From IMG/VR virus record IMGVR_UViG_3300033148_008025, positions 57,455 to 121,454 of that record: 64,000 nt of DNA. One strand, given 5' to 3'. The notes beneath the pieces are model-generated. The model saw only the letters and a list, made by a program, of their open reading frames with translations. It had not been told where the DNA came from and made no database searches. Position 1 is the first letter of the stretch; every line of letters begins with the position of its first letter. The DNA is from a virus. The position numbers and the translations under genes are program-made. Of this stretch, positions 2,497 through 51,420 are shown one piece after another.

Positions 2497-5415
2497 ATGT
2501 CTCGCCAAGGAACAGGTTCTAGAGTTGAGCTCCGTATGTACATGGAGGGGATTCTTGTCGAGAACGGACTAGCAAACGTTAGCGTTAGTGGCGACATCGG
2601 AATGCCAGCATCAGCTCAGCTCGAGCTGGTTCCAACCAACACGATAAAACACATCCTTCCAGGAACATGGATTCATGTTTTTGTGACAGATCCGTGGGAG
2701 GTTAATCCAACAGGCAATCTCGATGACTTCAAGTTGCTGTTCGAAGGTGTTGTCTCGGCTAAGGGATTCACGAAAACCGACGATGGTAGAAACTTCACAG
2801 TGCAATGCATCGCACCAGAAGTATTCTGGACCGAAGCTCGTCAGTTCTGGGTAAACCTTGCGGCTGGAAGCAGTCTCGTTGACCAAATCGTAGTGCAAAC
2901 GTCGGGAGGCAGTGGTCGCTTCGGAATGATTGGGGGGAACGCCAAGTTTGGCTACATGCAAAGCAAGCTCAAAAAAATCGAGGATGGAAGCGAGGAGCGC
3001 TTCATGGACACACTCGTGTCAGTTCTCGATGATATCGGAGGAGTCAACCCGTATTACACCAACGCAAAAAACAGAATAAGACTTACCGATCGTATTGTTA
3101 GGGGGGCCGCAGGAAAGACCGAGGAGCTGTTTCAAATATCGCTCTTCACCGACTTCCTAGAAGGCCTCGCTTCTCGAACTTCCGATCAGTCAAGCTTGCT
3201 CGAAGTGATCAACTCTCTGCTTGGTGCAATTCTCCATGAATGGGTTTCTGTTCCTGCCCCGCCATACATCAAATCTCAAGTCTTTGACCGGGACACGTTC
3301 GGAAATATCAAGCGTGGTAAAAGCACCGTAAGGAAAAATACGGGAGACGGAAAAAGAAAGAAGAAGGTCGACATCTACGACTTCAAGACTGCCCAGGACG
3401 ACATTATCGCGAGCATCATATTCAAGCCTCACATCTACACGCTATCCCCACCTACGTGCAACATCCTCTACCCCAACATGTATGATCAGATGTCATACAG
3501 CCACAACCACATGAATGAAACAACGAGGCTTCAGATGCAGCCGCAGTTGTTTTCCAGTGCTTTCAGGAAGATCTCGAAACACCTGAGGATCATGCGTCCG
3601 ACCGAACTGGAAATCTTCACCGGTCTCACTCGAGACAAGAAGGCTGGGACTAGAGGGAAACGGACACCTGATGCCAAGTACGCAGACGGAGCTGGCCAAG
3701 CTCCCGTGTTTCACGACTATGACTGGGCAACAAACGAGGAGCGAATCCGTGGAATCAAATACAACTTCATAAATCTCGCTCCGGCCCCGGGCACCCTGAC
3801 GATGACAAGTCAGGGAAAACGACAACCATCCGGAACAAGAAAAGGTGGTGCACCGAAGTACTTGCAGAACGTGGCAAGCTACGAGTACTACAAGTCAAAG
3901 TTTTCGGCCAGAGGCGCAACAGTGTCCGGCCCCTTGAACATTCGCCCCGTACCAGGGTTTTCAATCCTATTACTGGATGATTCCGCATCCCAGCAGAACA
4001 TCGTTGCATATCTTAGCGGGATTACTCATTCCATTAGCGCCGACGGGATGGCAACAACCCAGTACAGCATCAGCCTTCCAAGGCTGACCGACGAGGTGGA
4101 CTACAATCGCCCTAAGTTCAAGAAAAGCGCGACAGGTGAAAACGAAATCGATTTTGACCTATTCAGAGACGAGGAAGGCAGGTACGACTTTGCGAAGCTG
4201 TTTGACGGCGTCAATGAGCCGCCGATTCCTGAGTGGTTTGACGACGACTACAAAAACCTCCTCGACCTAGACGTGAGATATCGAGAGTGGTTTGGAACCA
4301 ATGTCGGGGTAACGCAGAACCTCTTATTTGTAGATCCGGAGCAGACGGAAAAGAATGCAATCGCAAATCAGGAGGCTGCAAGAGCAGTATACCTGGAGGA
4401 GAACGGCGTTGAGCCGGAACCAGGAGAGATACCCGACTATCCAAAATCCCTAAAAGACGACATTGTTCAATCAAACAACACGATCGGATTGAATGAGGCA
4501 GTTTTGGAACTAAACGAAAGATACACAAAGGCTCGCGGCAACGGCAGGGAGAAGGAAGAAGCTGGGGTACGAACGGCGAGAGCATTCACGAAAATCGACG
4601 AAGCGTTCAGATTCATCGGAGCTTCTCCGTTCGAATTGTCGGACCAAGCGATAGGCGAAAAGAGCAAGTCCGATCAAACCACCTTTGTGAAAAACCCGGC
4701 GTCGGAGAGGGTTATCAACTACAAGACGATGAGGCTAGACAGGTTCGTCGGAGACACTTCCCCAGGGTCTGGATATTCAGGTGTCCCAGAGGGAGAGTCC
4801 AAGGAAACAAACGATTCAAGCGGGAGCGGGGTTTCCGAGCGCATGTCTGGTGCTTTTTCAAAATTCGATACGATCGTGCACACCGGCGATAAGGCACTCA
4901 AGACAAAGGAGAGGGCTGATGCTGTAAAAGCAGAGAGTGCACCTTCATCAAGTCCGCGATATGACGGACGCCCCAGAATGTACGATTTTGAATTTCGTAT
5001 ATGGCAGGACTCAATCAAGGCTGCACAGGCAGCGGGGTTCACCATCGACGGTGAGAAGATTGCCGATTCTGCTGCCGTCGCAGACCACTATGTCAATGGA
5101 AGTAGTGGGACAATACGAGGTGCGACTGCCGAAGAGAAAGCTGCTGCTCGCGAGAGCAGGGTTGCAACAAACGCACAGAGGACTGCAGAGGAAAGCGATC
5201 GCATGTCCAAGGGGCGTCATCCTGTTCGACGAGTTCGTTCTAGGTGCCCAAACATGCCCCCCGCAAACCAGGCTCCCACCGGAGCCGGACTAGAGGAAGA
5301 GCTTGTCCTCCCGCTTCCTCAGCCGCTATCGGAAAAGCAGGTTATTAACATCAGAAGGTCTATCATCGACGCTTATCGAGACGAATTGGAGAGAACTCGT
5401 GGATTCACAGGATAG
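2497..5415 (+). CDS. Baseplate hub protein (T4 gp27 / P2 gpD / Mu gp44-like) with long C-terminal extension
   Basis: 972 aa; N-terminus has hub-type pattern (VSVSGDIGMPASAQLEL...LLFEGVV...FTVQC) and later G-x-L-N-I-R-P-x-P-G...AYLSGITHSISADGMATTQYS. Confidence 0.65.
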   Translation: MSRQGTGSRVELRMYMEGILVENGLANVSVSGDIGMPASAQLELVPTNTIKHILPGTWIHVFVTDPWEVNPTGNLDDFKLLFEGVVSAKGFTKTDDGRNFTVQCIAPEVFWTEARQFWVNLAAGSSLVDQIVVQTSGGSGRFGMIGGNAKFGYMQSKLKKIEDGSEERFMDTLVSVLDDIGGVNPYYTNAKNRIRLTDRIVRGAAGKTEELFQISLFTDFLEGLASRTSDQSSLLEVINSLLGAILHEWVSVPAPPYIKSQVFDRDTFGNIKRGKSTVRKNTGDGKRKKKVDIYDFKTAQDDIIASIIFKPHIYTLSPPTCNILYPNMYDQMSYSHNHMNETTRLQMQPQLFSSAFRKISKHLRIMRPTELEIFTGLTRDKKAGTRGKRTPDAKYADGAGQAPVFHDYDWATNEERIRGIKYNFINLAPAPGTLTMTSQGKRQPSGTRKGGAPKYLQNVASYEYYKSKFSARGATVSGPLNIRPVPGFSILLLDDSASQQNIVAYLSGITHSISADGMATTQYSISLPRLTDEVDYNRPKFKKSATGENEIDFDLFRDEEGRYDFAKLFDGVNEPPIPEWFDDDYKNLLDLDVRYREWFGTNVGVTQNLLFVDPEQTEKNAIANQEAARAVYLEENGVEPEPGEIPDYPKSLKDDIVQSNNTIGLNEAVLELNERYTKARGNGREKEEAGVRTARAFTKIDEAFRFIGASPFELSDQAIGEKSKSDQTTFVKNPASERVINYKTMRLDRFVGDTSPGSGYSGVPEGESKETNDSSGSGVSERMSGAFSKFDTIVHTGDKALKTKERADAVKAESAPSSSPRYDGRPRMYDFEFRIWQDSIKAAQAAGFTIDGEKIADSAAVADHYVNGSSGTIRGATAEEKAAARESRVATNAQRTAEESDRMSKGRHPVRRVRSRCPNMPPANQAPTGAGLEEELVLPLPQPLSEKQVINIRRSIIDAYRDELERTRGFTG

Positions 5416-6232
5416 GCAGATTGGACTTGAAATAGAGGCTGAGCTGGAGGAGTGGCTTGACAAGGAAGCTGCTGCTCGAGGTATTGACCGAGAAGCTCTG
5501 CAGCAATCAGAGCTGGAGGCGTGGGAGCGTTGGAGTAAGGACCCCAACCAGCAAGACTTTGAGACGCTGTACCAGAGTCACCAGCCACTGTTCGAGACAA
5601 TAGGTGCTCGATACATGAAAAGCAGCAACCTTCCCACAGCTGCAATCAGATCTAGGATGACGCAGAACTACGTGAAGGCCCTCGAGGGATACGACCCAAC
5701 AAGAGGGGCGAAGCTATCGACGCATGTCATGAACACACTTCCGCATCACATTCCAAGATACATACAGAAGTATACAAACATTGGAAGAATTCCTGATGAC
5801 ATGGGTGGGATGATCGGACTACTCGAGGAGCGGAATGCTGCACTATCAGACCGCCTTGGACGATTGCCGACAAACGACGAGCTCGCTGATGACATGCTAA
5901 TGTCTGCGCGGGACTATTCCGATCAAAGGAAAAAACTCATAACACCAAAAAAGGTGGGGACGCTGAGAAGGTCTTTGCGGCTAGACTTTGTCGCAGAAGA
6001 GGCTGGCGGCGTTGCCCCAACGCATGGTGTCTCGAAGCTTGAGCAGCATGCAGTTTATTTGCATGGCTCATTGAATTCCGAGCAAAAACTAATTCTCGAA
6101 CATACCTACGAAGGGTTTGATAAGCCGATCATCCAGGACGTTGAACGACTGTCCAGGACGGTAAAGATGTCTCCTCAAAAGGTTCGTGCGATCAAGAAGC
6201 AAATCTGGAAAAAGATGGAACGGTACATGTAA
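5399..6232 (+). CDS. Sigma70-family RNA polymerase sigma factor (group-3/FliA-like size)
   Basis: Region 2 YDPTRGAKLSTH, region 3 RIP...LSDRLGRLPTNDELAD, region 4 HTH-like LSRTVKMSPQKVRAIKKQI. Start chosen at GTG 5399 with GGAGAG upstream; the ORF track starts at TTG 5303. Confidence 0.8.
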   Translation: MDSQDRQIGLEIEAELEEWLDKEAAARGIDREALQQSELEAWERWSKDPNQQDFETLYQSHQPLFETIGARYMKSSNLPTAAIRSRMTQNYVKALEGYDPTRGAKLSTHVMNTLPHHIPRYIQKYTNIGRIPDDMGGMIGLLEERNAALSDRLGRLPTNDELADDMLMSARDYSDQRKKLITPKKVGTLRRSLRLDFVAEEAGGVAPTHGVSKLEQHAVYLHGSLNSEQKLILEHTYEGFDKPIIQDVERLSRTVKMSPQKVRAIKKQIWKKMERYM

Positions 6233-25660: not shown

Positions 25661-27703
25661 ATGGCAAGCACGCAATCAGGATCTTTGGATCGACGTCGGG
25701 GAACGGTATATCCATCACCGTTCTTTGATATCGCCCAGACATATATGCCGCCAACCGTGAAAGAACTTTTCCGGTGGTGTGCATATTTCTTTTACAAAGA
25801 TCCAATGATCGGCTCGGTGGTCACGAAGATCGCCGAGTACCCTGTTACGGACTTTGTCTACAACGCAAGCCAAAAACATGTTCGCGACGGGTGGAAAGAA
25901 ATCCTCGAAGACACGCTGAACATGAAACCGTTCCTCATAGAGGTCGGGCTAGACTACTTCGCATACGGCAATGCATTCATCAGTATCAACCTCCCATTTA
26001 CACGATGGATCCAGTGTCCCAGTTGTTCGAGTCTTTACAAACTGGAAGATGAATCCTTCAAGTTCTCGTTCAAAAATTTCGAGTTTCACTTCGAGTGCAA
26101 GGACTGTAAATCCAACGTAGTTGGGAAGATCGTCGACAATCCAATAAGAGATCGCACTGGAATCAATTTCGTCCGGTGGGACCCCAAGAACATAGACATT
26201 CACTACAATCCTATTACTGGAAAGTCTAAGTACCGGTACCAGATTCCAAACAAGATCAAGAAGGCAATCCACAAGGGTAGCCGTGAAATACTGGTCGACA
26301 TCCCAGAGATTTTCTTCATCGCGCTCAAGAAGAAAAGGGACATACAGCTATCAGACCAGAACCTTTTTCACTTCAAGCGTCCAACGCTCGCAGAGCAAGA
26401 CATGGGATGGGGGAAGCCACTAATCATCCATTCGATGGGAAGGATGTTCTACCTCTACGTTCTCAGAAGGGCTCAAGAGGCTATTGCCTTGCAACGCATA
26501 ATGCCAATGGAATTCATCTTCCCGCAGGCAAATGCTCAGCAAGACCCATATCAGCACGTAAATTTATCCTCTTGGCAGGGAAACATAGAGAACGAAATTC
26601 ACAAATGGAGGCAGGACCCCAATTACATCTCAATCGTTTCTGTTCCGCTCGGCTTTGAACGTCTTGGCGGTGATGGCAGAGCGCTTCTTCTTGGGCCTGA
26701 GATTGAAGTCACGAACAAGGAGATCACGGGTGGAATGGGAGTTCCGTTAGAATTCGTATTCGGAGGGCTGTCTTGGTCCGGATCCAGTGTTTCGCTACGA
26801 ACACTGGAAAACCACTTCCTGATGTATCGCCGACTTCTTCTTCGATTTGTAAACTGGTCAAAAAATCGAATCAGGCTGTACCTTGGACTTCCCGATATCG
26901 ACATTGGATTCACAGAATTCAAGATGGCTGATGACGTTCAGCGAAAACAAATTGTCATCCAGCTTAACGCTGCCAATAAAATCTCAGACCATACCATGCT
27001 CACAGAACTTGGATTTGATTACGACGATGAGCAGGAGATGATAGAGAAAGAGACCGATCAGCGAAACCAGATTCAGGCGATGACGATGAAGGCTCAGGCA
27101 GAAGCACAGGGTGAGTCATCCATCGTCTCCGCAAAGTATCAGGCAAGAGCGCAGGAAACTTTCCAGGAAGCACAGGGGGCGATCTCTGGCGGGCAACCTG
27201 GGCAAACAGAGCAAGCGCAGGCGCAGGTATCAGAAGGCCAGGAGCAGAACCCTGAAGAGGGCGGAGGGCAGCCTCGGCAACAACAAGGCGAACAACAACA
27301 GCCTCAGGACGGGCAACAGCAGATAACGCAAATCCCAACTTCTGCACAAGGAATCGGAAAGTCCGAGGATCAGTCCATGGCTGCACAAGCCGCTGCACAG
27401 GGTGCTGCACAGGGCCAGGCTGCCGTCGAGGGACAGGCTGGCACTCAAGCTGGCGGGACTTCTACGGACGTCAAAGACGCCGCGGGGCAGGCAAAGGAGT
27501 GGGCCAACATAATCGCCAAGAAGCCACCAGAGGAGCAGGCAAAGATTCTCGCAGAAATGGACAGAAAGTTGCCAGCCATGACAAGGCTGGTGAAACAACT
27601 TCTTGCGCAAATGGCTCCCGGAGAGACCTCGGGAGATGCCGCAAAGAAAATGAAGCCCCTTCCACAGAAGGCCCCACCCAGGCGTAACCAGGGGGTCATC
27701 TAA
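25661..27703 (+). CDS. Portal protein
   Basis: 680 aa; DPMIGSVVTKIAEYPV, DYFAYGNAFI, LFHFKR...GWGKP, EITGGMGVPLEFV portal-type motifs; CxxC-x23-CxxC insert; Gln-rich tail. Confidence 0.8.
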   Translation: MASTQSGSLDRRRGTVYPSPFFDIAQTYMPPTVKELFRWCAYFFYKDPMIGSVVTKIAEYPVTDFVYNASQKHVRDGWKEILEDTLNMKPFLIEVGLDYFAYGNAFISINLPFTRWIQCPSCSSLYKLEDESFKFSFKNFEFHFECKDCKSNVVGKIVDNPIRDRTGINFVRWDPKNIDIHYNPITGKSKYRYQIPNKIKKAIHKGSREILVDIPEIFFIALKKKRDIQLSDQNLFHFKRPTLAEQDMGWGKPLIIHSMGRMFYLYVLRRAQEAIALQRIMPMEFIFPQANAQQDPYQHVNLSSWQGNIENEIHKWRQDPNYISIVSVPLGFERLGGDGRALLLGPEIEVTNKEITGGMGVPLEFVFGGLSWSGSSVSLRTLENHFLMYRRLLLRFVNWSKNRIRLYLGLPDIDIGFTEFKMADDVQRKQIVIQLNAANKISDHTMLTELGFDYDDEQEMIEKETDQRNQIQAMTMKAQAEAQGESSIVSAKYQARAQETFQEAQGAISGGQPGQTEQAQAQVSEGQEQNPEEGGGQPRQQQGEQQQPQDGQQQITQIPTSAQGIGKSEDQSMAAQAAAQGAAQGQAAVEGQAGTQAGGTSTDVKDAAGQAKEWANIIAKKPPEEQAKILAEMDRKLPAMTRLVKQLLAQMAPGETSGDAAKKMKPLPQKAPPRRNQGVI

Positions 27704-29472: not shown

Positions 29473-30002
29473 CAGGGGTAGCGGTCGAGCACGCTTCTTT
29501 GCTGTGACGGCACTCCTTGGGGCTGAGACGGGTAGTGCGGTGGTGGAGCTCCCAGTGGTATCCCGTAGCCCGCCGGACCCTGCTGGGGCTGCTGATGCTG
29601 CTGGCTAGGGGGGAACCCAAGTGGTGAGCTTCTAGCATGGTTTGGCATAGACGGATTTCCTGTCATTGTGCCAAGTGCTGCTATTGGGAGAATCGGTAAT
29701 CCGCTTCCTTCCCACTTTCCTAGGAAGTGTTGGTAAACCATGGACCCTGCCGCGAGCATGAATGCCCAGGCGCAGGCCGCGAAAAATGTTCGCATCCCAC
29801 TGCCAACAGGTGTCTGATTGACGGCCCCTGTGGTGGGGGGGACAAGCCCAGAATTATCTGTGATAAATCCTGAGGCTGGGACTGCAGCGGCTGCAACTGC
29901 AAGAAAACCCAGGTCTGACAGTGTTGGCCCTTTCTTCTTTGCTGTAACTCTTCGCTTTTTGGTGGGGAAGCTGTTCTTTGCTAGAACGATGTAACAAATC
30001 AT
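29469..30002 (-). CDS. Hypothetical membrane protein with Pro/Gln-rich tail (minus-strand island 2)
   Basis: 177 aa; hydrophobic segments; convergent with the spanin-like gene; start uncertain. Confidence 0.5.
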   Translation of the reverse strand: MICYIVLAKNSFPTKKRRVTAKKKGPTLSDLGFLAVAAAAVPASGFITDNSGLVPPTTGAVNQTPVGSGMRTFFAACAWAFMLAAGSMVYQHFLGKWEGSGLPILPIAALGTMTGNPSMPNHARSSPLGFPPSQQHQQPQQGPAGYGIPLGAPPPHYPSQPQGVPSQQRSVLDRYPC

Positions 30003-30094: not shown

Positions 30095-30103
30095 CCTTAT
30101 GCC
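30095..30103 (-). promoter_or_regulatory. GGCATAAGG motif (copy 1 of 3 exact)
   Basis: Exact 9-mer, intergenic, upstream of minus-strand gene 29469-30002. Confidence 0.5.
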
Positions 30104-30115
30104 AAGACAATGTAG

Positions 30116-33100
30116 GTGCCGACTATGGAAAGCTTCGATTACCAGGACCAGTTCAACAGGGTTAAGAAGGATGTTATTGCATCCGTGACCAAGGCTCTCG
30201 ATATCCAATCTGCTGGTGCAAACCGCAAAATGGTTGTCCATAAAGTATGGATCGATGACAACAAAAACCCAGCAGACTGGGAGTCTCAAAAGCAGGCCGT
30301 ACGAAAAGATAAGACTTGGGGAGTACCTGTCTATGCAACCGTTGATCTCATTGACCGAAAGACCGGAGCGGTTCTTTCCTCTGAGGAAAGGATCAAGGTA
30401 GCCACACTTCCGAGGCCCACGAACCTCGGGAGTTTCATCATCGACGGAAAACACTATCAGGTTCAGTCTCAGCTTCGCCGCAAACCTGGTGTCTACACCG
30501 TTCAGAAGCGAAACAAACAACTCAAGACTGAGGTGAACATCCAGAAGCGCCCATTTGATATCGATATGGATCCGGAAACTCAGATCTTCAAAATGAAGAA
30601 AGCGGGTTCCGACCAGGCGTTTGCCTTGTATCCGATTCTCTCTAGGCTTGGAATCTCAGATGTGGCAATGGCTCGAAGATGGGGCAAAGACGTTCTCGAG
30701 GCAAACAAATCAATCAAGCCGAAGAACGCCGAGGTCTCAGTAAGAAAGGCTGCGTTGTTCTTTACTGGAAGCAACTTTGATTCTGCCGAGGACGCAGCAA
30801 ATGCAATAAAGGAGTACTTTCAGGATACCGAAATAAAGCCAGAGGTGACCAAGTCAACCCTCGGAAAAGCGTATACGAAGGTTACGCCCGACCTCTTGCT
30901 AAGAGGATCAGAAGAGCTTCTTCGGGCAAACAGGGGAGAGCGCGAAGCGGATGACAGGCAAGCTCTTGAGTTCAAGAAAGTTCTCGGAATGAGCGACCTG
31001 ATGAGAGAGAGAATGCTCCAAAGCGATGGGCAACTAGCTGGTGCCATGTCCAAAGTAAGAGGCGGAATCTCCAGGAAAATCAACAACCGAAAGAAACCTG
31101 TCTCGGAAATCTCCAAACTCATAAAGACGAACGAGTTCACGCCGTTCTTCAACTCTTTTTTTAGCCAATCTTCGCTATCAAACATCACAGACCAAACTAA
31201 TCCGATCACCATGCTGAACGGAACCGCCAAGATCACCGTACTCGGGGAAGGGGGGGTAATGGATGCCACCAGAGTTCGAGGCGAAGAGAGAGCTGTACAC
31301 CCATCTCAGATGGGATTTATAGATCCGATCCATACGCCCGACTCTGGAAACATTGGACTGGTAATGAACCTTCCACTTGGAGTCACCAAGAATGGGGAGA
31401 ATCTACAAACAAAGGTGATAGATCCGATAACTAAAAAAATCAGATCGATTACCCCGAGTGAAGCAAGAAACATGGTCGTAGCTTTCCCGGATCAGTATTC
31501 AAAGAAGACTGGAAAGTTCCTGGGAGACAAAGTCAGAGCATTTGTGAATGGGCAATTTGAGAACGTGTCGCCAGACAGGGTTGATGTCGTTCTTGCTAGC
31601 CCAAAGCAAGCATTCTCAATTGCATCAAATACCATCCCGTTCCTTCCTGCGGCACAGGGCGTTAGAGCGCAGATGGCAACCAAGATGCTTGAGCAGGCAA
31701 TTCCTCTCTCGGAAAGAGAAGCTCCTTTGGTCCAGGTTGGACTTGGTAGAAGCACTATCGAGAAAAGCATAGGAGAGGGGTTCTCTGTCCAGGCGCTGGA
31801 CGACGGAATCATAGAGAAAGTCGAAGACGGCAAGATCACGATAAAGACCAAGGATGGAAAGGTGGAGCAAAAACTCTACACGAATATCCCGCTAAACAAA
31901 AAAGCGTTTCTGACGTCAACCTCGACAGTCAAAGAGGGGGATGCCGTCAAAAAGGGAGACGTTATCGCTGACTCGAATTTCACGAAAGATGGTCAGCTTG
32001 CACTTGGAACAAACCTTCGAGCAGCCTACATCCCATACAAGGGATACAACTTCGAAGATGGAATTGTAATCACTGAGAGCGCGGCAAAAAAACTTACCAG
32101 CGAGCACATGAACGAGTTTGCATCATCCATAGAAAAAGGAATGGAGGTCTCACTTAAAGACTACATGGCATGGAAGGGTGGGGGGCTCGACCTCAGCCAG
32201 CGACGAAAACTTGACAAGGATGGGGTCATCAAAATTGGCGAAACTGTTCACAAGGGCGATGCACTTTGGGTCGGAACAAGGGAGAATAAGTATGACCCAG
32301 ACTATATCGCAGCCAAGAAAATGAATCCCAACCAAGATCCTAAGAAGGCCTACAGGGAGGAGTGGACAAAGGATGGGTTAGGGGAAGTTGTCGACGTAGT
32401 CAAAAGCAACGGTAAGATCAAGGTTTACGTGAAGTCTAAGGAGGCTGCGGTCATAGGTGATAAGCTCACAAATCGTCACGGCGGAAAAGGAATTGTAACC
32501 AAAATTATCCCGGACGGAGAAGCACCTTATACAGCAGACGGAAGAGCTGTCGATATCCTGCTCAACCCTCACGGCGTCGTGAGCAGAATCAATCCTTCCC
32601 AGATCCTCGAAACAGCAGCAGCCAAAATTGCCGACCTCGAAGGCAAGCCGTATGTTGTCGAAAACTTTTCCGGCGAAAATTACACGGAGTCTGTAACGAA
32701 AGCTGTCAAGAAGGCAGGCATCTCAGATACTGAAACCCTGTATGACCCGCACACAAAGAAAGCACTCGGTGATGTTCTTGTTGGCCCCCAGTACACCCTG
32801 AAGCTTTCAAAGCAGGCAACGTCTCAGTTCTCTGCACGCTCTGAGGGGAAGTACGATGCAGATCTTGCTCCGCTCAAGGGTGGAGAAGATGGTGCAAAAG
32901 CCCTCGACATGTTGACGTTCTACTCGATGCTTTCGCATGGCGCTCGTTCAAACATTAGGGAGATGGCAACATACAAAGCAACCGAGAACAAAGAGTTCTG
33001 GCGATGGGTCGAGAGAGGGGCCTCGTCCGGAATGATTACGCCTCCGCCAGAACCAACTCTTGCATACAAGAAGTTCGAAGCCTACATGAAGGGCGCCGGT

Positions 33101-36100
33101 GTCAACATGGAACGACGTGGGTCAAAGATGGTGCTTGGGCCAATGACCGACGAGATGACAGACAAGATCAGTAATGGGAAAGTTCGAGATGCAACATTCC
33201 TTCGAGCGAAAGATCTGAAGTACGAGCGCGGCGGACTGATGGATCCAAACATATTCGGCCAAGGCGACAAGTGGGGACACATCGAACTTGCCGAATCCAT
33301 TCCAAATCCAGTCTTTGAAAAACCAATCAAAGTACTCACCGGCATAGATGACAGAACATTCAAGGCAGTGGTCAAAGGCGAAAGATTCTTAGACCCTAAA
33401 ACCAATGAGTGGAATGAAAAGAAAGGGCTTACTGGTGGCGAAGCCATCTCTCATTTACTGAAGCAGGTTGACGTAGATAAAGAAATTGCCATCTGGACAG
33501 ACAAAGCAAAAGGAGCGGCCTACAAAAAAAGGAAGGACGGGACTCGAACGGAGGACGAACTGAACACTGCCAATAAAAGGCTTCGCTATCTTCATGCCCT
33601 CAAGAAACTAAACATGTCCCCGGACAAGGCTTACATCCAAAAGAAAATTCCAGTTGTCCCAACGCAGTTTAGGAAGATCATCGAAATGGAGGGAGGCAAC
33701 CTCTCCAACGCCGGACTCAACTCTCTGTACCGAGATGTTGGTTTGATTAGCGACCAGCTCAAGTGGCAGAAAACCGTCGACTACATGCCCGAGTCCGTAA
33801 AGGCGGAGCTTAGGGAGAATCTGTACGGAAGTGTGAAGGCCGTAGCTGGACTCGGAGAGCAGGTGAGGCGAGGAGGAAGTCAGAAAGCTGACAAGCGTCC
33901 AAGGGGCATCATCGAACAACTAAAAGGAAAGAAAGCAAAAGAAGGGTTCTTTCAGCGGAAGGTTTTGCGCAGAACGCAGAACCTCGTCGGGAGAGGAACG
34001 ATCATTCCAGATCCGAAGCTCGGGGTTGACGAGGTCGGCCTCCCGAAAGAAATGTCCTGGACACTGTTCGAGAAGTTTGTAACTCGACGCCTAGTCAATA
34101 GTGGGTACAAACCGAATGATGCAATCGAGGCAGTAAACAATCGAACCCCTGCAGCACTATCTGCCCTGCAAGCGGAGATGGAAAGCAGGCCGGTAATGCT
34201 CAACAGGGCACCGTCACTCCATAAGTTCTCTATCCAATCGTTCAAACCAAGAATGGTCGATGGAAAAGCGATCAAGATCCCTCCACTCATTGTCGGAGGC
34301 TTCAACGCCGACTTCGATGGAGACGCAATGACTGTGCACGTTCCAGTACTCAGCGACTCAGTGGCCGAGGCTAAGAAGATGCTCCCATCTAGGAACCTGT
34401 ACAGTCCCGGAACTGGCGACATCATGATCAAACCCCAGAATGAAGCCGCCCTAGGGCTGTATCAGATGTCAATCGATCCAAAGCTCAAGGGGAAGATCTT
34501 AGAAGAACTTCCCGAGAAGACCAGAGCCAAATTCGAAAACCGTCCACTCGATAAGAAGGGGCTTGGAGATCTGATGAAGAGCCTCGCAATCGAAAGTCCG
34601 GATGGGCATGGTGCGGTTGTCGACAAGCTCAAGCTTATGGGTGACGACCACACATACAAGACTGGATTCACAGTCAGCCTGAAAGACTTGTCCCCGGTTC
34701 TTCCTGAGAGGAATGCAATATTCGCAAGAACGAAAAAAGACCTAGCGGGAATTGATACTAAAACCAGGAAAGGAAGAGAGGAAGCATCTGCTTTAATTTC
34801 CGCCGCAGACAAAGAACTGGAAGCCGTCTTAGCCAGTCGCCTCGATGAGCAAGGAAACAGTTTTCGACTAATGGTGAGATCTGGCGCTCGAGGGAACATG
34901 CAGCAGCTCAAGCAGATCCTATCTGCTCCGTTTGCCGTTCCAGACCATAGGGGGCAAGTGCTGGCAGAACCGATTACAACATCCTTTGCCGAAGGGCTGC
35001 CATTCTCGGATTACTGGAACACGCTATATGGGGCGAGGGCTGTTGCAACGGATAAGCAACTCCAAACCCAATTGCCGGGGGCATTCAACAAAGACATCAT
35101 GGCCTCTTCCGTTACCAACGTGATCTCCGGCGCGGATTGTGGGGTTAATCGAGGAGTGAAGATTTCACTCAAGAGTAAAATCGATGACGCAGAAGATCGT
35201 TACCTGGCCAAGGACATAAGTGTTGGCGGAACAGTTGTTGCCAGAGCGGGAACGCTTATGAGTACTGGACTGCTCAACACGCTGCGAGACCGAAAAGTCG
35301 ACAACGTGGAAGTTCGCTCTCCACTCACCTGTAATAAGCCGAAGGGTACATGCGCAAAATGCTTTGGACTCAACGAGAGTGGAAATCTATCTCAGATTGG
35401 GGACAACATTGGAGCTACCGCCGGCCAGGCTCTGTCTGAACCATTGACCCAGATGACACTGAGAACCTTCCACCAGGGAGGTGTTGCTGGAGGGCGAGGT
35501 GTTGTGAGCGGATACGACAAAATCGACAAGCTCTTTAAGATGCCAAAGATCAAAAGAGGAAAAGCCACCCTTGCCAAAAGTGATGGAGTCATTGAAAGCG
35601 TAAAAAATGCACCTGGTCGAACAGGGAAAAACATCAAAATCAGTGGCTATAGAAAAACTCATTTTGTTGAAAACGATCTGTGGAACAGCAACAAAGCTCG
35701 CGTTGGGAAGAATGTTTTCAAGGGGGACATCCTCTCCGACGGACTTGTTCAGCCACAGGAACTCGTCGAATTAAAAGGAATGCAGAGTGCACAAGAATAC
35801 CTTGTCGATGAGATTCAAGATGCCTACGGATCTCAGGGAGTGAAGCTGAAAAGAAAGACTGTAGAAACAGTAATCAGGGCAGTTGCGAACACCACAAAGA
35901 TCCACGACGCAGGCGACAGCAACTTCCTCATCGGCGATGTTGCACCATGGACGGTTGTGGAGGATTACAACCGGAGATCTCTAGGTAAAAAAGGACTCGA
36001 TGAGATTATCGGACTTGCCCTCAAAGAGGACGTTCCTGGCATCAGAAAGAATACGATTATCTCCGAGAAAATTCGAAGCACGCTGGAGCGCATGGGCAAA

Positions 36101-36346
36101 TCGGAAGTTGAGGTGGGACCGCGTCCAATCGGGCACGAGCCGTTCCTGAAGGGGATTGAGCAGATTCCAATGTTGCGCAAAGACTGGATGAGCCAGATGG
36201 GATACCGGAACATAGAAAAGGCGATCACTGAGGGTGCTGCTACTCTTTCAGAGTCCGACATCCACGGGTATGCGCCGGTCCCAGCATTTGCCTACGGAGC
36301 CGAATTTGGGCTACCTGGCGGAGGAAAAGAGGAGGGAAGTTACTAA
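30116..36346 (+). CDS. rpoBC: Single-chain fused beta-beta' DNA-directed RNA polymerase (cellular two-barrel type)
   Basis: 2076 aa. beta motifs SQLRRKPGV, PIHTPDSGNIGL, KGYNFEDGIV, GDKLTNRHGGKG, NPHGVVSRIN; beta' motifs GHIEL, LNRAPSLH, catalytic NADFDGD (34304-34324), SGARG, trigger loop TQMTLRTFHQGG. No stop between the halves. Confidence 0.97.
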   Translation: MPTMESFDYQDQFNRVKKDVIASVTKALDIQSAGANRKMVVHKVWIDDNKNPADWESQKQAVRKDKTWGVPVYATVDLIDRKTGAVLSSEERIKVATLPRPTNLGSFIIDGKHYQVQSQLRRKPGVYTVQKRNKQLKTEVNIQKRPFDIDMDPETQIFKMKKAGSDQAFALYPILSRLGISDVAMARRWGKDVLEANKSIKPKNAEVSVRKAALFFTGSNFDSAEDAANAIKEYFQDTEIKPEVTKSTLGKAYTKVTPDLLLRGSEELLRANRGEREADDRQALEFKKVLGMSDLMRERMLQSDGQLAGAMSKVRGGISRKINNRKKPVSEISKLIKTNEFTPFFNSFFSQSSLSNITDQTNPITMLNGTAKITVLGEGGVMDATRVRGEERAVHPSQMGFIDPIHTPDSGNIGLVMNLPLGVTKNGENLQTKVIDPITKKIRSITPSEARNMVVAFPDQYSKKTGKFLGDKVRAFVNGQFENVSPDRVDVVLASPKQAFSIASNTIPFLPAAQGVRAQMATKMLEQAIPLSEREAPLVQVGLGRSTIEKSIGEGFSVQALDDGIIEKVEDGKITIKTKDGKVEQKLYTNIPLNKKAFLTSTSTVKEGDAVKKGDVIADSNFTKDGQLALGTNLRAAYIPYKGYNFEDGIVITESAAKKLTSEHMNEFASSIEKGMEVSLKDYMAWKGGGLDLSQRRKLDKDGVIKIGETVHKGDALWVGTRENKYDPDYIAAKKMNPNQDPKKAYREEWTKDGLGEVVDVVKSNGKIKVYVKSKEAAVIGDKLTNRHGGKGIVTKIIPDGEAPYTADGRAVDILLNPHGVVSRINPSQILETAAAKIADLEGKPYVVENFSGENYTESVTKAVKKAGISDTETLYDPHTKKALGDVLVGPQYTLKLSKQATSQFSARSEGKYDADLAPLKGGEDGAKALDMLTFYSMLSHGARSNIREMATYKATENKEFWRWVERGASSGMITPPPEPTLAYKKFEAYMKGAGVNMERRGSKMVLGPMTDEMTDKISNGKVRDATFLRAKDLKYERGGLMDPNIFGQGDKWGHIELAESIPNPVFEKPIKVLTGIDDRTFKAVVKGERFLDPKTNEWNEKKGLTGGEAISHLLKQVDVDKEIAIWTDKAKGAAYKKRKDGTRTEDELNTANKRLRYLHALKKLNMSPDKAYIQKKIPVVPTQFRKIIEMEGGNLSNAGLNSLYRDVGLISDQLKWQKTVDYMPESVKAELRENLYGSVKAVAGLGEQVRRGGSQKADKRPRGIIEQLKGKKAKEGFFQRKVLRRTQNLVGRGTIIPDPKLGVDEVGLPKEMSWTLFEKFVTRRLVNSGYKPNDAIEAVNNRTPAALSALQAEMESRPVMLNRAPSLHKFSIQSFKPRMVDGKAIKIPPLIVGGFNADFDGDAMTVHVPVLSDSVAEAKKMLPSRNLYSPGTGDIMIKPQNEAALGLYQMSIDPKLKGKILEELPEKTRAKFENRPLDKKGLGDLMKSLAIESPDGHGAVVDKLKLMGDDHTYKTGFTVSLKDLSPVLPERNAIFARTKKDLAGIDTKTRKGREEASALISAADKELEAVLASRLDEQGNSFRLMVRSGARGNMQQLKQILSAPFAVPDHRGQVLAEPITTSFAEGLPFSDYWNTLYGARAVATDKQLQTQLPGAFNKDIMASSVTNVISGADCGVNRGVKISLKSKIDDAEDRYLAKDISVGGTVVARAGTLMSTGLLNTLRDRKVDNVEVRSPLTCNKPKGTCAKCFGLNESGNLSQIGDNIGATAGQALSEPLTQMTLRTFHQGGVAGGRGVVSGYDKIDKLFKMPKIKRGKATLAKSDGVIESVKNAPGRTGKNIKISGYRKTHFVENDLWNSNKARVGKNVFKGDILSDGLVQPQELVELKGMQSAQEYLVDEIQDAYGSQGVKLKRKTVETVIRAVANTTKIHDAGDSNFLIGDVAPWTVVEDYNRRSLGKKGLDEIIGLALKEDVPGIRKNTIISEKIRSTLERMGKSEVEVGPRPIGHEPFLKGIEQIPMLRKDWMSQMGYRNIEKAITEGAATLSESDIHGYAPVPAFAYGAEFGLPGGGKEEGSY

Positions 36347-36675
36347 TGGACGAAATAAGAAAACTGGCTGAGAGTTCACTGCAGGAGGCTGTGAGCATAG
36401 CTAGGCTCGCGGGGGGCGCCGGGATGAGGATTAAGCTTGGAGCTGCCCTACCCAAGCTCCCGAGTGCTGCGCAGCAGCTTAGGGCTACTGCGAGCTCCTC
36501 TTGGAGGATGGGAGCCTCGCCGCCAAAGCCGAAGTCTATGCGTCCAAACGGACGCATAGGAGATCCGGCTAGGACCAGGTCGCCAGCCAAGCCTCCAAGC
36601 AAGAAGGCATTTTACCGAGACATGGTTCTCGGAATGGACCCGAGTTATGGCAACCGTATGGCTGTCAAAGGCTAA
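36346..36675 (+). CDS. Small basic protein translationally coupled to the RNAP gene
   Basis: 109 aa; TAATG overlap; begins MDEIRKLA. Confidence 0.6.
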   Translation: MDEIRKLAESSLQEAVSIARLAGGAGMRIKLGAALPKLPSAAQQLRATASSSWRMGASPPKPKSMRPNGRIGDPARTRSPAKPPSKKAFYRDMVLGMDPSYGNRMAVKG

Positions 36676-38101: not shown

Positions 38102-38152
38102 TGTTCTGCATTTCTTTCCCCGGACAATCGACCGGATTTTCTTGTTCATTAA

Positions 38153-38161
38153 CCTTATGCC
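38153..38161 (-). promoter_or_regulatory. GGCATAAGG motif (copy 2 of 3 exact)
   Basis: Exact 9-mer about 52 nt upstream of the ssb start. Confidence 0.5.
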
Positions 38162-41829: not shown

Positions 41830-42714
41830 GTGCGATACCCATACGAGCGATTCATTAGGTTTCTCGTATCCCGCAAGCTTGATCCAAGTGACACGCTGAA
41901 CGGGTACGGGCTTCCACACGTGGGTCCGATGTGGACAAGCGATTGCCGCCACGAACTTCGAAAAACAGCTCCATCTGCGATCGTCAACTACATTGATTCC
42001 AAGAACGATCATCTTACGTTTAAGAATGGTGTCCTGGAGTGGGCGGAAGACGAGGGCTTTAGGGAGCTCTGGGATGCCCAACCCGAATTCAGCGGAAAGA
42101 CTGATGCAAAGTTAGACACTGCGCATCTCATTTTCATGAACCCTCACTCAAGGGCTCTGACTGGGATGATGATTCTCTCCAAGGCCTCAGACGATGAAAT
42201 ATGTCTGATGGTCAAAGAGAAGCTCGGCCTCGAGCTAGACGAAGAGGGCTTAGGTATATACTGCGATATCTTCTGGGATGTAGACATCCTCGGCAGAGAG
42301 GGGTGGGAAGCTTTTCTTTCTGAGATAAAAACGAAGGAGGAGAGGCACTACCTCGCACTAGGACTCGGGGCACTGTCACTCGACGAATGTCGCAATACAG
42401 CAGGACTCGGGACGCATCTTGACCTCGACATGATGCTTCACGCTGTTTTGTCAGAGTCCTTCTTCAAGCTGAGAGCTGCTTACAACCACCCAAACCCTGA
42501 AGCTGCGAACATTGAGATGTGGCATAGCCATTGGCAGAGAGCGTGGGATAGAGCAGAGAAAAGACGGAGAGAAGAAGACGGGGAAAATCCAATTGCAAGT
42601 GGCGACTTCGAAGCCCTCTTTTCGATTCGAACAACAAAATCCGAACATGTGTCACTCACTGACCTCAAAGGACACATGTCGACAGGCGCAGAAATCGCAA
42701 AAGAGAAGGGTTGA
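41830..42714 (+). CDS. Hypothetical protein, terminase small subunit candidate
   Basis: 294 aa, helical, immediately upstream of and overlapping terL; identity positional only. Confidence 0.45.
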   Translation: MRYPYERFIRFLVSRKLDPSDTLNGYGLPHVGPMWTSDCRHELRKTAPSAIVNYIDSKNDHLTFKNGVLEWAEDEGFRELWDAQPEFSGKTDAKLDTAHLIFMNPHSRALTGMMILSKASDDEICLMVKEKLGLELDEEGLGIYCDIFWDVDILGREGWEAFLSEIKTKEERHYLALGLGALSLDECRNTAGLGTHLDLDMMLHAVLSESFFKLRAAYNHPNPEAANIEMWHSHWQRAWDRAEKRRREEDGENPIASGDFEALFSIRTTKSEHVSLTDLKGHMSTGAEIAKEKG

Positions 42715-44492
42715 TGGAACAAGTAGAAGAGAAAGAAGAAGCTCTTGATAGCTACGACTCGGATCCGTTTGACTTTACGGAGTTTCAGGAGCGACCAGCG
42801 ATGCGGAAACACATCGACTGGAAGCATGCGGGTGACTGGGCACCAACACTAAAATCATTCACAAAGAAAGGGCGTACAAAACCTTCCTTCGGTGGTCGTG
42901 TAAGTGATATCGCACAGGCGGTTCTTTACCATCTCGGGCGACCACTCCGCCTTGACAATCATGCATTCATGCTCCCAGTCTTCAACGACCAAGATCCGAG
43001 GCTGGTTCTTAAGTGTTCGCGACAGGTTGCGAAATCAACAACCATTTGCAATCTACAACTGATTGAATCGATCATCACTCCACACTGGAGAAGCCTCTAT
43101 GTCTCACCGTCTGCACTGCAGACGAGGCAATACTCCAACGAGAAACTTCGTCCTACAATCTACGACTCACCGTTTGTGAAGGGTGGTTTTGCTGGGAAAG
43201 GGGTCACTGACCAGGTTTTTGAGAAAACCTTACTCAACGGTTCATACATGTTCCTGCGATACGCATTCCTCACTGCAGCCCGAGCTCGAGGTATCCCTGC
43301 TAGCCGCGTGTTTTTTGATGAAGCCCAAGACCTCCTGAAAGACAATATCAAGGTTATCTCACAGTCGCTCTCGGCATCACGCCTTGCTGCAGGTGTTGAG
43401 GGGCGGGAGATGATTGCAGGAACACCCCTGACTTTCGCCAACACGCTAGAAGAGTATTGGCAGTGGTCGACCCAGAACGAGTGGCTAGTCCCTTGCGACT
43501 GCAAGGCACCTCGATATTGGAATATGATCGGCCCGACAAACATCGGAAAAAAAGGGCTGATCTGCTCAAGCAAAAACTGCGGAAAGCCACTCAATGCCGC
43601 AGCGGGGCAATGGGTTTCATTTCAGCCCGGCGAGCACTATGTTGGATACCACATCTCCCAACTCATGGTTCCGTGGAAACAGGAACCAGACGCATGGAGT
43701 GCTGAGATCGTACTTCCATTCGACAAGTGGCCAGAATCAAAGTTCAACAATGAAATTCTGGGGCTATCCTACGACAACGCATCATCCCCTGTTACGAGGA
43801 TGGACCTACAGGCAAATTGCTATCCGCAGCAAGAAATACCAAACAAGAACACAAGAAAGTTCGTCTGGCAGAAAGGCCCTGCACAGGCAGGGCTAAGGGT
43901 GTTTGCAGGTATTGACTGGGGAGAAGGTCGAGAAGAAGGCGCGGTTGAAGGTGGGGTCAAGAGGTTCGCGTCATGGACCGTGCTAACTCTGGGCGGATAT
44001 GTTGGCGACAAGTTTTGGCCATTCGCCATGAAGCGATACGTGGGCAAGGATGTTGATCCAGAGATAATCATCCCAGACGTTCTGCACCTATGCGGATACT
44101 GGAACGTCGAAGTTGTGGGGGCTGACTGGGGGCACGGCTGGGGAATGAATAGCCGGATCATGAAGGCAATCGGAAAGCCTCGGGTGATGCAATTCGCTTA
44201 TTCGTCCAATCTTGGTGAGAAAAAAAGATGGGACGCAAATGCCTACAAGTTCATCATCAACCGCAACTCAGCCCTTGTGAATGTCTTTTCGAGCATCAAG
44301 CAAGGGAAATACGTTTTCCCCGAATGGGAGGAATTTGAACCATTCGGAAAAGATATCCTGGCAGAGTATGTGGAGTACAATGAGCGAACTCGAACAATGA
44401 AGTACGACCATCCGATAGATCAGCCAGACGATGCCCTGCACAGTCTTGTGTATTGCAAACTTGCGGCTGACATCACTCTTGGAAAGTTCTAA
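42714..44492 (+). CDS. terL: Terminase large subunit
   Basis: Walker A-like LKCSRQVAKST, Walker B VFFDEAQD, AGTP motif, nuclease AGIDWG, ADWGHG, PDDALHS. Confidence 0.92.
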   Translation: MEQVEEKEEALDSYDSDPFDFTEFQERPAMRKHIDWKHAGDWAPTLKSFTKKGRTKPSFGGRVSDIAQAVLYHLGRPLRLDNHAFMLPVFNDQDPRLVLKCSRQVAKSTTICNLQLIESIITPHWRSLYVSPSALQTRQYSNEKLRPTIYDSPFVKGGFAGKGVTDQVFEKTLLNGSYMFLRYAFLTAARARGIPASRVFFDEAQDLLKDNIKVISQSLSASRLAAGVEGREMIAGTPLTFANTLEEYWQWSTQNEWLVPCDCKAPRYWNMIGPTNIGKKGLICSSKNCGKPLNAAAGQWVSFQPGEHYVGYHISQLMVPWKQEPDAWSAEIVLPFDKWPESKFNNEILGLSYDNASSPVTRMDLQANCYPQQEIPNKNTRKFVWQKGPAQAGLRVFAGIDWGEGREEGAVEGGVKRFASWTVLTLGGYVGDKFWPFAMKRYVGKDVDPEIIIPDVLHLCGYWNVEVVGADWGHGWGMNSRIMKAIGKPRVMQFAYSSNLGEKKRWDANAYKFIINRNSALVNVFSSIKQGKYVFPEWEEFEPFGKDILAEYVEYNERTRTMKYDHPIDQPDDALHSLVYCKLAADITLGKF

Positions 44493-51339: not shown

Positions 51340-51356
51340 CTTGGACTCCTTTGTTA

Positions 51357-51406
51357 TGGCTAAGAAGGTTGGGGTGTCGAACCCCATACCCGTCCTTTGC
51401 CTTCTT
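51357..51406 (-). ncRNA. tRNA-minihelix-like structured element (T-arm + acceptor-like stem + CCA)
   Basis: AAGAAGG-13 nt-TGGGG-TTCGACA-CCCCA-A-CCTTCTT-AG-CCA; no D or anticodon arm, so not a canonical tRNA. Confidence 0.4.
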
Positions 51407-51411
51407 GAAGT

Positions 51412-51420
51412 CCTTATGCC
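51412..51420 (-). promoter_or_regulatory. GGCATAAGG motif (copy 3 of 3 exact), preceded by GGCGTAA
   Basis: Overlaps the stop of the upstream minus-strand gene; about 72 nt upstream of ATG 51339. Confidence 0.45.

What the first reader, a model, noticed from the sequence alone, without database searches (positions are those of the whole stretch)
30116..36346. Streamlined single-polypeptide beta-beta' RNA polymerase in a phage
All conserved bacterial beta then beta' blocks occur in order in 2076 aa, versus about 2750 aa for the two E. coli subunits. The end of beta (AYKKFEAYMKGAGVNME) joins the start of beta' (MVLGPMT...ERGGLMDPNIFG) through about 5 residues (RRGSK, about 33110-33127). It is much closer to cellular RNAP than the phiKZ, YonO or crAss enzymes are. 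I recall a metagenomic lineage of such phages (mReC, Weinheimer and Aylward 2020), so the gene class is probably known. To my knowledge its biochemistry is not.
Basis: partly seen in the sequence, partly recalled or inferred. Interest (0 to 1): 0.75.

Follow-up and report, generated by a model that had tools for sequence, protein, structure and literature searches.

The report
Single-chain phage RNA polymerase with own sigma
A large uncultured phage encodes both big catalytic subunits of a bacterial-type RNA polymerase as one intact 2073-residue protein, next to its portal gene and with its own sigma factor; the family is very large in metagenomes, but I found no biochemical study of it.

Summary
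Window 30116-36346(+) is one open frame of 2076 codons; the likely start is ATG 30125, giving 2073 aa. It carries beta domains, then beta' domains, joined directly at RRG|SKM (33113-33127). The joint is gapless in 29 relatives of 39-67% identity. It is spanned in one stretch by all 150 listed hits, of 568 clusters (50% identity) at E<=1e-10.

The record is a phage fragment with portal, large terminase and baseplate genes. In trees the enzyme lies outside Bacteria. It groups with the RNAP of Salmonella phage Arash and Vibrio phage D69, where beta' is secondarily split.

It is not the published mReC arrangement. Every mReC entry I read has separate beta and beta' genes, and those form another clade.

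About two thirds of the "streamlining" is absence of E. coli-specific insertions. Real losses are the beta' zinc ribbon, beta' 124-148, beta' 516-571 and part of the jaw.

The phage and five near-complete relatives each encode one sigma70-family protein. None encodes alpha or omega.

A promoter-like motif, GGCATAAGG, occurs only on the opposite strand.

Best model: a sigma-dependent single-chain RNAP, probably carried in the virion. Virion carriage is inferred, not shown.

The scan has met this family before on other DNA.

The parts
30116..36346 (+). Fused beta-beta' RNA polymerase gene. The ORF runs from GTG 30116; the probable start is ATG 30125, giving 2073 aa.
30116..33121 (+). Beta module (aa 1-1002). 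It includes the NFEDGIV motif (32048-32068) and the NRHGGKGIV motif (32471-32497). The Rif-pocket region lies at 31157-31255 and carries H526->G, R529->K, S531->T and Q513->N in E. coli numbering.
   Evidence: Pfam; alignment; coordinates
33113..33127 (+). Fusion joint RRGSK. The end of beta abuts beta' residue about 18, with no stop, frameshift or linker.
33122..36343 (+). Beta' module (aa 1003-2076). It holds the clamp helices (33569-33769), NADFDGD (34304-34324), the bridge helix (35027-35110), the second zinc site made of the protein's only four cysteines (35132-35368), and the trigger loop (35408-35491).
33224..33295 (+). The place where the bacterial beta' N-terminal zinc ribbon (E. coli 64-97) is missing. 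IFG runs straight into GHIEL with no cysteine.
34451..34492 (+). The place where E. coli beta' 516-571 is missing. It is also the point where Arash-type and D69-type genes are split into two genes.
5399..6232 (+). Sigma70-family protein (277 aa from GTG 5399; regions 2-4), the likely specificity subunit.
   Evidence: PHROG_351 E 8e-9; PDB SigA E 7e-7 over regions 2-4; 30% identity to Arash gp10; homologues on the same contigs as fused RNAPs; predicted complex
25661..27703 (+). Portal protein, upstream of the RNAP gene as in Arash (gp204) and D69.
42711..44492 (+). Large terminase subunit.
   Evidence: PHROG_675 E 4e-47
30095..30103 (-). GGCATAAGG promoter-like motif in the divergent gap just upstream of the RNAP start. 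It faces the minus-strand gene 29469-30002.
38153..38161 (-). GGCATAAGG motif 11 nt upstream of the SSB gene (37679-38149, minus strand).
51412..51420 (-). GGCATAAGG motif upstream of minus-strand gene 50917-51387.

Best explanation
The gene encodes the complete catalytic core of a bacterial-type (two double-psi beta-barrel) RNA polymerase as one chain; this is shown. I infer that the chain works as a holoenzyme with the phage's own sigma70-family protein (window 5399-6232), without alpha or omega, the covalent beta-beta' join replacing the assembly role of the alpha dimer (about 0.6). I further infer that the enzyme and sigma, both encoded on the structural-gene strand, are made late and packaged (about 0.45). 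After injection they would transcribe the opposite-strand replication-type operons (SSB, SNF2 helicase) from bipartite promoters of the form CAC-N(12-15)-GGCATAAGG. A changed rifampicin pocket suggests the enzyme is drug-insensitive.
For: Catalytic core:
- The ORF is intact, with six collinear Pfam RNAP domains.
- NADFDGD, NFEDG, RHGxKG, the bridge helix, the trigger loop and the Cys4 site are conserved; D1399/D1401/D1403 are invariant in 29 relatives.

Phage origin:
- Portal, TerL and baseplate genes are present, and the record is an IMG/VR virus record.
- Only 2 of 185,579 species genomes carry the gene, both on phage-sized contigs.
- Bacteria are monophyletic without it, with support 99-100.

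Sigma partner:
- A sigma70-family gene is present.
- One sigma homologue occurs in each of 5 of 5 near-complete relatives.
- Sigma homologues lie on the same contigs as three close fused RNAPs.
- The predicted complex scored 0.79, best of 3 controls 0.00. That mark was reached by 58 of 80 solved complexes and 2 of 110 mismatched pairs. The runs agree in at least 78% of contacts and the partner's pLDDT is at least 79.
- The predicted interface is RNAP 1187-1239 (clamp helices) with sigma 73-92. Sigma-beta' complexes are solved, so this pass may come from likeness to them.

No alpha or omega:
- PF01000 and PF01192 give no match above cut-off in this record or in 4-5 near-complete relatives, while the control genomes all match.

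One RNAP locus per genome.

Promoter-like motif:
- GGCATAAG occurs 11 times on the minus strand and 0 times on the plus strand (expected about 1.1 and 1.2 respectively).
- Each copy lies upstream of a minus-strand ORF.
- Copies sit at orthologous places in two relatives whose RNAP is 63-66% identical.
- A weak CAC element lies at sigma70-like spacing.

Virion link:
- The Arash homologues gp206 and gp216 and sigma gp10 were detected in purified particles, and gp206 had the highest spectral count (PMC10585845).
- The portal-RNAP-terminase neighbourhood is conserved in 15-23 of 29 fused loci.
Against: - No expression, proteomic or biochemical data exist for this phage or for any full-length fused member.
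- The Arash particle proteome also lists many metabolic enzymes. Its authors say abundant non-structural proteins may have been carried over, so virion residence is not secure.
- Phage sigma factors commonly redirect the host core enzyme, and the complex model cannot tell the two cores apart.
- This record is only 67% complete.
- The host's alpha and omega could be borrowed.
- Which polymerase uses the GGCATAAGG motif is unknown.
Confidence: 0.6

Rival explanations
1. The enzyme is a non-virion middle or late transcriptase. Host RNAP reads the first genes, and the phage enzyme, with or without the phage sigma, is made during infection and takes over, as in a T7-like programme. It is not packaged.
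For: There is only one RNAP locus per genome, unlike phiKZ/AR9, which keep a separate virion enzyme. The Arash particle proteome may contain carried-over abundant proteins.
Against: The gene sits between portal and terminase on the structural strand across the family. It lacks the minus-strand motif upstream. The Arash homologue gave the highest spectral count in particles.
Confidence: 0.3
2. The phage sigma serves the host core RNAP, as T4 gp55 or SPO1 gp28 do. The fused enzyme then starts transcription by some other factor or on its own.
For: Phage sigmas that redirect host RNAP are common, and a 2026 review says RNAP-lacking jumbo phages use them this way (PMC13282480). The complex model would probably also pass with a bacterial beta'.
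Against: Sigma co-occurs with the fused or split RNAP in 5 of 5 near-complete relatives and in Arash. The clamp-helix surface is retained. Sigma was found with the RNAP in Arash particles.
Confidence: 0.15
3. The gene is a misassembly, a frameshifted rpoB-rpoC pair, or host contamination.
For: None found. Reads could not be examined.
Against: The joint has the same length in 29 relatives, and 568 clusters (50% identity) match across it at E<=1e-10. Identity to any bacterial rpoBC is only 24-30%. Bacteria are monophyletic without it. Phage genes lie on both sides.
Confidence: 0.01
4. It is simply a fused member of the published mReC lineage.
For: In the best IQ-TREE topology all phage enzymes sit on one side of a branch, but with support of only 35, so this is neither shown nor rejected. 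Both groups are tailed phages with cellular-like beta and beta'.
Against: All mReC entries I read have two genes, and several contigs carry two paralogous sets. The mReC representatives form their own fully supported clade at 24-30% identity to this protein. The fused clade has one locus per genome and the conserved GSKM joint.
Confidence: 0.1

Closest known systems
RNAP of Salmonella phage Arash (gp206 + gp216, sigma gp10) and of Vibrio phages D69/D148/D181
   Same: They belong to the same clade (support 99-100). They share the same beta::beta' joint and lack the beta' zinc ribbon. They have a portal-adjacent position and a homologous sigma. Identity is about 30% over 98% of the length.
   Different: In them beta' is cut between the active-site module and the rest, giving 1525 + 606 aa; in Arash the two genes lie about 4.8 kb apart. 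Here the chain is continuous. The tree suggests that the split is secondary. Their records annotate the genes as ordinary beta/beta' or as hypothetical proteins.
mReC phage RNAPs (Weinheimer & Aylward 2020, PMC7481178)
   Same: They are uncultured tailed phages of about 100-300 kb with beta and beta' recognisable by cellular profiles, and they branch outside Bacteria.
   Different: Beta and beta' are separate genes in every entry I read, and two paralogous sets often occur per contig. They form a different clade, and their sister relation to the fused clade is unresolved.
Bacterial RNAP core and holoenzyme (alpha2-beta-beta'-omega + sigma70)
   Same: It has the same catalytic architecture and motifs, clamp helices, second zinc site and sigma70-family partner.
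   Different: This enzyme is one chain with no alpha or omega gene and no beta' zinc ribbon. It lacks beta' 124-148, beta' 516-571 and part of the jaw, and has none of the E. coli insertions. Natural rpoB-rpoC fusions in Helicobacter and Wolbachia, and an engineered E. coli fusion, are known to me from memory only. Those are full-size and still use alpha.
phiKZ / AR9 virion and non-virion multisubunit RNAPs
   Same: They are phage-encoded two-barrel RNAPs without alpha or omega, and one set is packaged and injected.
   Different: Those are split into 4-5 polypeptides, are far more divergent, come in two sets per genome, and use non-sigma70 specificity subunits (review PMC13282480).
Single-chain two-barrel RNAPs: crAss-like gp66, YonO, P23-45 tape-measure RNAP
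   Same: They are single polypeptides carrying both barrels, and some are delivered by the virion.
   Different: Those keep little more than the DxDxD motif and are not found by cellular beta/beta' profiles (stated in PMC7481178). This one matches six Pfam RNAP domains.

Membership tests
Bacterial-type multisubunit RNAP catalytic core | beta' barrel with the NADFDGD Mg-binding motif | tested here: met
   aa 1397-1403; D1399, D1401 and D1403 are invariant in 29 relatives
Bacterial-type multisubunit RNAP catalytic core | beta barrel motifs (NFEDG; RHGxKG) and collinear beta then beta' domains | tested here: met
   Pfam Rpb2_3, Rpb2_6, Rpb1_1, Rpb1_2, Rpb1_4 and Rpb1_5 all above cut-off; alignment
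Bacterial-type multisubunit RNAP catalytic core | beta' N-terminal zinc ribbon (four Cys) | tested here: not met
   E. coli 64-97 has no counterpart. The protein has only 4 Cys, all in the second zinc site.
Bacterial-type multisubunit RNAP catalytic core | alpha dimer and omega as assembly partners | tested here: not met
   PF01000 and PF01192 are absent from this record and from 4-5 near-complete relatives, while all control genomes are positive. Use of the host subunits was not testable.
Bacterial-type multisubunit RNAP catalytic core | sigma70-family initiation factor docking on the beta' clamp helices | tested here: inconclusive
   A sigma gene is present and co-occurs with the RNAP. The complex model passes, 0.79 against 0.00 for controls, but may reflect likeness to solved complexes. 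There is no binding experiment.
mReC (Weinheimer & Aylward 2020) | Tailed-phage contig with beta and beta' found by cellular profiles | tested here: met
mReC (Weinheimer & Aylward 2020) | beta and beta' as separate proteins, as in the listed members | tested here: not met
   Supplementary Data 2 parts 9-12 against the single ORF here
mReC (Weinheimer & Aylward 2020) | Placement inside the mReC clade of the RNAP tree | tested here: not met
   L049 (a published mReC contig) and its kin form a separate clade with support 100. A sister relation is neither shown nor rejected.
Arash/D69-type phage RNAP clade | Conserved direct beta::beta' joint, no zinc ribbon, portal-adjacent gene, cognate sigma | tested here: met
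Arash/D69-type phage RNAP clade | beta' split into two genes after the active-site module | tested here: not met
   The chain is continuous here. The split appears in Arash, D69 and loci L025, L028, L030, L031, L036, L042, L046, L054 and L058.
Arash/D69-type phage RNAP clade | Presence in virions | not testable with these tools
   Mass spectrometry exists only for Arash (PMC10585845).
phiKZ/AR9-type jumbo-phage RNAPs | beta and beta' each in two or more polypeptides; two enzyme sets; no sigma70-family factor | tested here: not met
   One chain, one locus, sigma present; definition from PMC13282480
crAss gp66 / YonO-type single-chain RNAPs | Too divergent for cellular beta/beta' profiles; only the barrel motifs remain | tested here: not met
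   Strong Pfam and PDB matches

The most novel reading that the evidence does not exclude
This clade would be a third deep lineage of bacterial-type RNA polymerase, beside Bacteria and mReC. It would function as a minimal two-protein machine: single-chain beta-beta' plus a sigma70-family factor, with no alpha, omega or zinc ribbon. The machine would be packaged in the capsid and start infection from its own bipartite GGCATAAGG promoters.
Probability: 0.35. Interest if true: 0.8.

Novelty: new variant of a known kind. Interest (0 to 1): 0.62.

Why it matters
Phage multisubunit RNAPs studied so far (phiKZ, AR9) are split into many pieces and use unusual specificity subunits. A 2026 review states that they lack sigma homologues. 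Here the opposite design appears: one chain that is still close enough to bacterial RNAP to align residue by residue, paired with a recognisable sigma and no alpha or omega.

If active as such, it would be the smallest known sigma-dependent bacterial-type RNAP. It would offer a direct test of what alpha, omega and the beta' zinc ribbon are needed for. It could also serve as an orthogonal transcription system.

Cultured relatives (Arash on Salmonella, D69 on Vibrio) and a candidate promoter make these questions testable now.

Tried and rejected
- Sequencing runs across the joint: none was listed, and no RNA holder was listed.
- Megablast of 12 kb against cultured phages found no near relative.
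- K-mer enrichment upstream of plus-strand (structural) genes gave only the Shine-Dalgarno sequence, so no late-promoter candidate emerged.
- The conserved C-terminal PxPAFAYG tail first looked clade-specific. On inspection it is the counterpart of the bacterial beta' C-terminal IPAGTG, preceded by region H after an insertion of about 40 aa that MAFFT misaligned. I dropped it.
- The small ORF overlapping the RNAP stop (36346-36675) has no family match and is not conserved in distant relatives. I do not count it as a subunit.
- An AU test of 'fused clade + Bacteria as one clade' did not finish on one CPU, so the three-way relation stays unresolved.
- I could not assign a function to the missing beta' 516-571 segment with these tools. 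I make no claim beyond its coincidence with the split site.
Full report
**Observation.** The window holds one open frame at 30116-36346(+), 2076 codons from GTG. The protein on record for this contig starts three codons later, at ATG 30125, and has 2073 aa. Pfam finds Rpb2_3 and Rpb2_6 in the first half. It finds Rpb1_1, Rpb1_2, Rpb1_4 and Rpb1_5 in the second half. All six are above their curated cut-offs and lie in the bacterial order. Solved bacterial beta' chains match at E about 1e-103. The DNA at the joint reads straight through...AACATGGAACGACGTGGGTCAAAGATGGTG..., with no stop or shift.

**What the record is.** The window is the last 64 kb of a 121,454-bp IMG/VR virus record that CheckV rates 67% complete. 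It carries several phage genes:
- a portal (25661-27703), homologous to Arash gp204 at E 8e-70;
- a large terminase (42711-44492);
- a baseplate wedge protein (8679-10742);
- an SSB (37679-38149, minus strand).

GC content is even at about 0.50. No tRNA gene was found.

**Anatomy against bacterial enzymes.** I aligned 35 family members, Arash gp206+gp216 and D69 with E. coli and S. aureus beta+beta'.
- E. coli beta aligns to its end at Q1002, and beta' aligns from about residue 18 at Q1003. The fusion is direct.
- Segments missing relative to E. coli are beta 221-302 and 339-370 (SI1), beta 932-1049 (SI2), beta 1126-1193, beta' 64-97 (the zinc ribbon), beta' 124-148, beta' 516-571, beta' 943-1101 (SI3) and beta' 1139-1186 (jaw).
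- S. aureus also lacks most of SI1, SI2, beta 1126-1156 and SI3. About 250 residues are therefore true losses of parts shared by both bacteria.
- The protein has only four cysteines, and all four lie in the second beta' zinc site.
- NADFDGD, NFEDG, RHGGKG, the bridge helix, the trigger loop and the clamp helices are kept.
- In the rifampicin pocket the E. coli positions are changed as Q513N, H526G, R529K and S531T. From established resistance genetics I infer low drug sensitivity. This is not tested.

**The family and the joint.**
- The word-indexed search returned at least 120 clusters (90% identity) with the full fusion. Most are 1990-2105 aa at 37-66% identity, on contigs up to 186 kb. Some are 2400-3000 aa with intein domains.
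- In 29 aligned members (39-67% identity to the window's protein) the stretch GAGV...GSKM.L.PMTD has no gap.
- A 131-aa fragment across the joint found 568 representatives of 50%-identity clusters at E<=1e-10. All 150 listed hits cover it in one stretch.
- In IMG/VR at least 25 loci hold the full fusion.
- Nine loci hold the Arash layout of beta-beta'N plus a separate beta'C. The cut lies at Q about 1455-1475, the very place where beta' 516-571 is missing.
- Of 185,579 species genomes only two carry the gene. Both are on contigs of 162 and 204 kb inside MAGs, which I take as mis-binned phages. All other hits are ordinary rpoBC at 24-30% identity.

**Phylogeny.** I built a FastTree tree of 73 taxa over 1710 columns. 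I also built an IQ-TREE tree (LG+C20+F+G4 by PMSF, quick search) of 41 taxa over 1123 columns. Both trees give the same three groups on the bacterial side of an NCLDV outgroup:
- Bacteria (support 99-100; about nine phyla, including CPR);
- the two-gene phage enzymes (100);
- the fused plus Arash-type enzymes (99-100).

The order of the three groups is unresolved. All phage enzymes sit together in the best tree, but with support of only 35. The Arash-type split forms are one group beside the main fused clade, and a fused sequence (L043, a long branch) branches below both. Parsimony therefore favours a later fission of beta'. Fast viral evolution could push the phage groups out of Bacteria artificially, which is the same caveat the mReC authors discuss.

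**Relation to mReC.**
- The main text of the paper never calls the mReC enzyme fused. The words 'fused' and 'fusion' there refer to crAssphage.
- Supplementary Data 2 lists a different protein for beta and for beta' in every phage row I read. The sizes fall into two classes, and several contigs carry both classes.
- The sheet of non-mReC hits also always names two proteins.
- No row has a protein of 2073 or 2076 aa or a contig of 121,454 bp.
- Locus L049 matches a published mReC contig by sample number and length (149,482 bp), and it falls in the two-gene clade.

**Partners.**
- Window 5399-6232 encodes a 277-aa sigma70-family protein. The evidence is PHROG_351 at E 8e-9, PDB SigA at E 7e-7 aligned over regions 2-4, and weak Pfam r2 and r3 hits.
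- It is 30% identical to Arash gp10.
- Its close homologues lie on contigs whose lengths match those carrying three of the closest fused RNAPs: 49,944, 64,893 and 152,267 bp.
- Five near-complete relatives (172-193 kb, one with terminal repeats) each have one sigma homologue and one RNAP locus. None has an alpha match.
- Omega gives no match above cut-off in this record or in four of those relatives.
- A complex model of RNAP 890-1460 with sigma scored 0.79, best of 3 controls 0.00. That mark was reached by 58 of 80 solved complexes and 2 of 110 mismatched pairs. The runs agree in at least 78% of contacts and the partner's pLDDT is at least 79.
- The interface is the clamp helices (1187-1239) against sigma 73-92. 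Sigma-beta' complexes are solved, so this shows likeness, not binding.

**A promoter-like motif.**
- GGCATAAG occurs 11 times in the record, all on the minus strand. About 1.1 copies are expected on that strand, and 0 are seen against about 1.2 expected on the plus strand. GGCATAAGG occurs 9 times against 0.27 expected.
- Every copy lies upstream of a minus-strand ORF.
- Three copies are in the window: 30095-30103, 38153-38161 and 51412-51420.
- In two relatives whose RNAP is 63-66% identical, the motif recurs on the same relative strand at orthologous places. These are the divergent gap before the RNAP start and the SSB operon.
- A weak CAC lies 12-15 nt upstream, which gives about 17 nt to CATAAG. 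That is the spacing of sigma70-type promoters.
- Minus-strand genes include the SSB and an SNF2 helicase.
- The RNAP, sigma and structural genes are on the plus strand and lack the motif.

**Model.**
- Shown: an intact, conserved, phage-borne single-chain catalytic core; a co-inherited sigma; no alpha or omega genes; a strand-specific conserved motif.
- Inferred: the sigma is its initiation factor; the covalent join substitutes for alpha-mediated assembly; the pair is made late, packaged, and transcribes the opposite-strand operons after injection.

The virion step rests on two things. One is gene position between portal and terminase across the family. The other is the Arash particle proteome. 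There gp206 had the most spectra (3516), and gp216 and sigma gp10 were also found. The authors themselves allow for carry-over of abundant enzymes (PMC10585845).

**Literature and earlier notes.** I found no paper describing this fused architecture or its biochemistry. A 2026 review states that known phage multisubunit RNAPs lack alpha, sigma and omega homologues (PMC13282480). The library is incomplete, so this is not proof of absence. This scan has already met the same family on other DNA, with the same closest relatives and the same sigma-but-no-alpha/omega picture. My results were reached independently and agree.

Noticed in passing
window 30095-30103, 38153-38161, 51412-51420 (minus strand); eight further copies in the left half of the record: GGCATAAG(G) occurs 11 times, only on the minus strand and always upstream of minus-strand ORFs. 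A weak CAC lies about 13-15 nt upstream. The motif is conserved at orthologous sites in relatives L168 and L169. It is a candidate phage promoter.
   Followed up: yes
window 5399-6232 (+): A divergent sigma70-family gene lies inside the baseplate/structural block. It is homologous to the particle-associated gp10 of Salmonella phage Arash.
   Followed up: yes
L027:10001-16012 and L040:10001-16015: In two IMG/VR relatives the fused RNAP frame is broken only by in-frame TGA codons (5 and 3). This suggests TGA-recoded phages rather than split genes.
   Followed up: partly
P0026, P0035, P0055, P0056, P0061, P0072 and others; loci L017, L024, L032, L039, L050, L089: Many relatives are 2400-3000 aa and carry intein and LAGLIDADG domains (PF14890, PF14528) inside the RNAP. 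Vibrio phages D181 and D148 have a homing endonuclease within the locus. The window's gene has none.
   Followed up: no
L090:155-4852: A 7-kb MAG contig ('uncultured bacterium') has one 1566-aa frame covering Q500-1786 at 29% identity. It may be another kind of beta-beta' fusion outside this clade.
   Followed up: no
L088 (162,553-bp contig, 'Leptolyngbyaceae' MAG) and L089 (204,271-bp contig, 'Bacteroidales' MAG): The only two GTDB species genomes with the fused gene carry it on phage-sized contigs. These are probably phage genomes binned into MAGs, so they are not reliable host assignments.
   Followed up: partly
L177:10176-12116 (-), just left of the window: An SNF2-family helicase is conserved with Arash gp198. 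Swi2/Snf2 helicases are linked to RNAP in other jumbo phages (PMC7824862) and to RNAP recycling in E. coli (RapA).
   Followed up: partly
window 39634-41826 (+): A 730-aa protein with no family match is conserved in 21 of 29 fused-type loci, between the RNAP gene and the terminase. Its function is unknown.
   Followed up: no
PMC7481178 Supplementary Data 2: Several published mReC contigs carry two paralogous beta/beta' sets, labelled a and b. This recalls the virion and non-virion pairs of phiKZ and AR9. The fused clade has a single locus.
   Followed up: partly
L170 and L172 (sigma homologues in G003 and G002): The sigma matches in two complete relatives are reported with in-frame stops (2 TGA; 1 TAG). 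I did not examine whether this is recoding or an overextended match.
   Followed up: no
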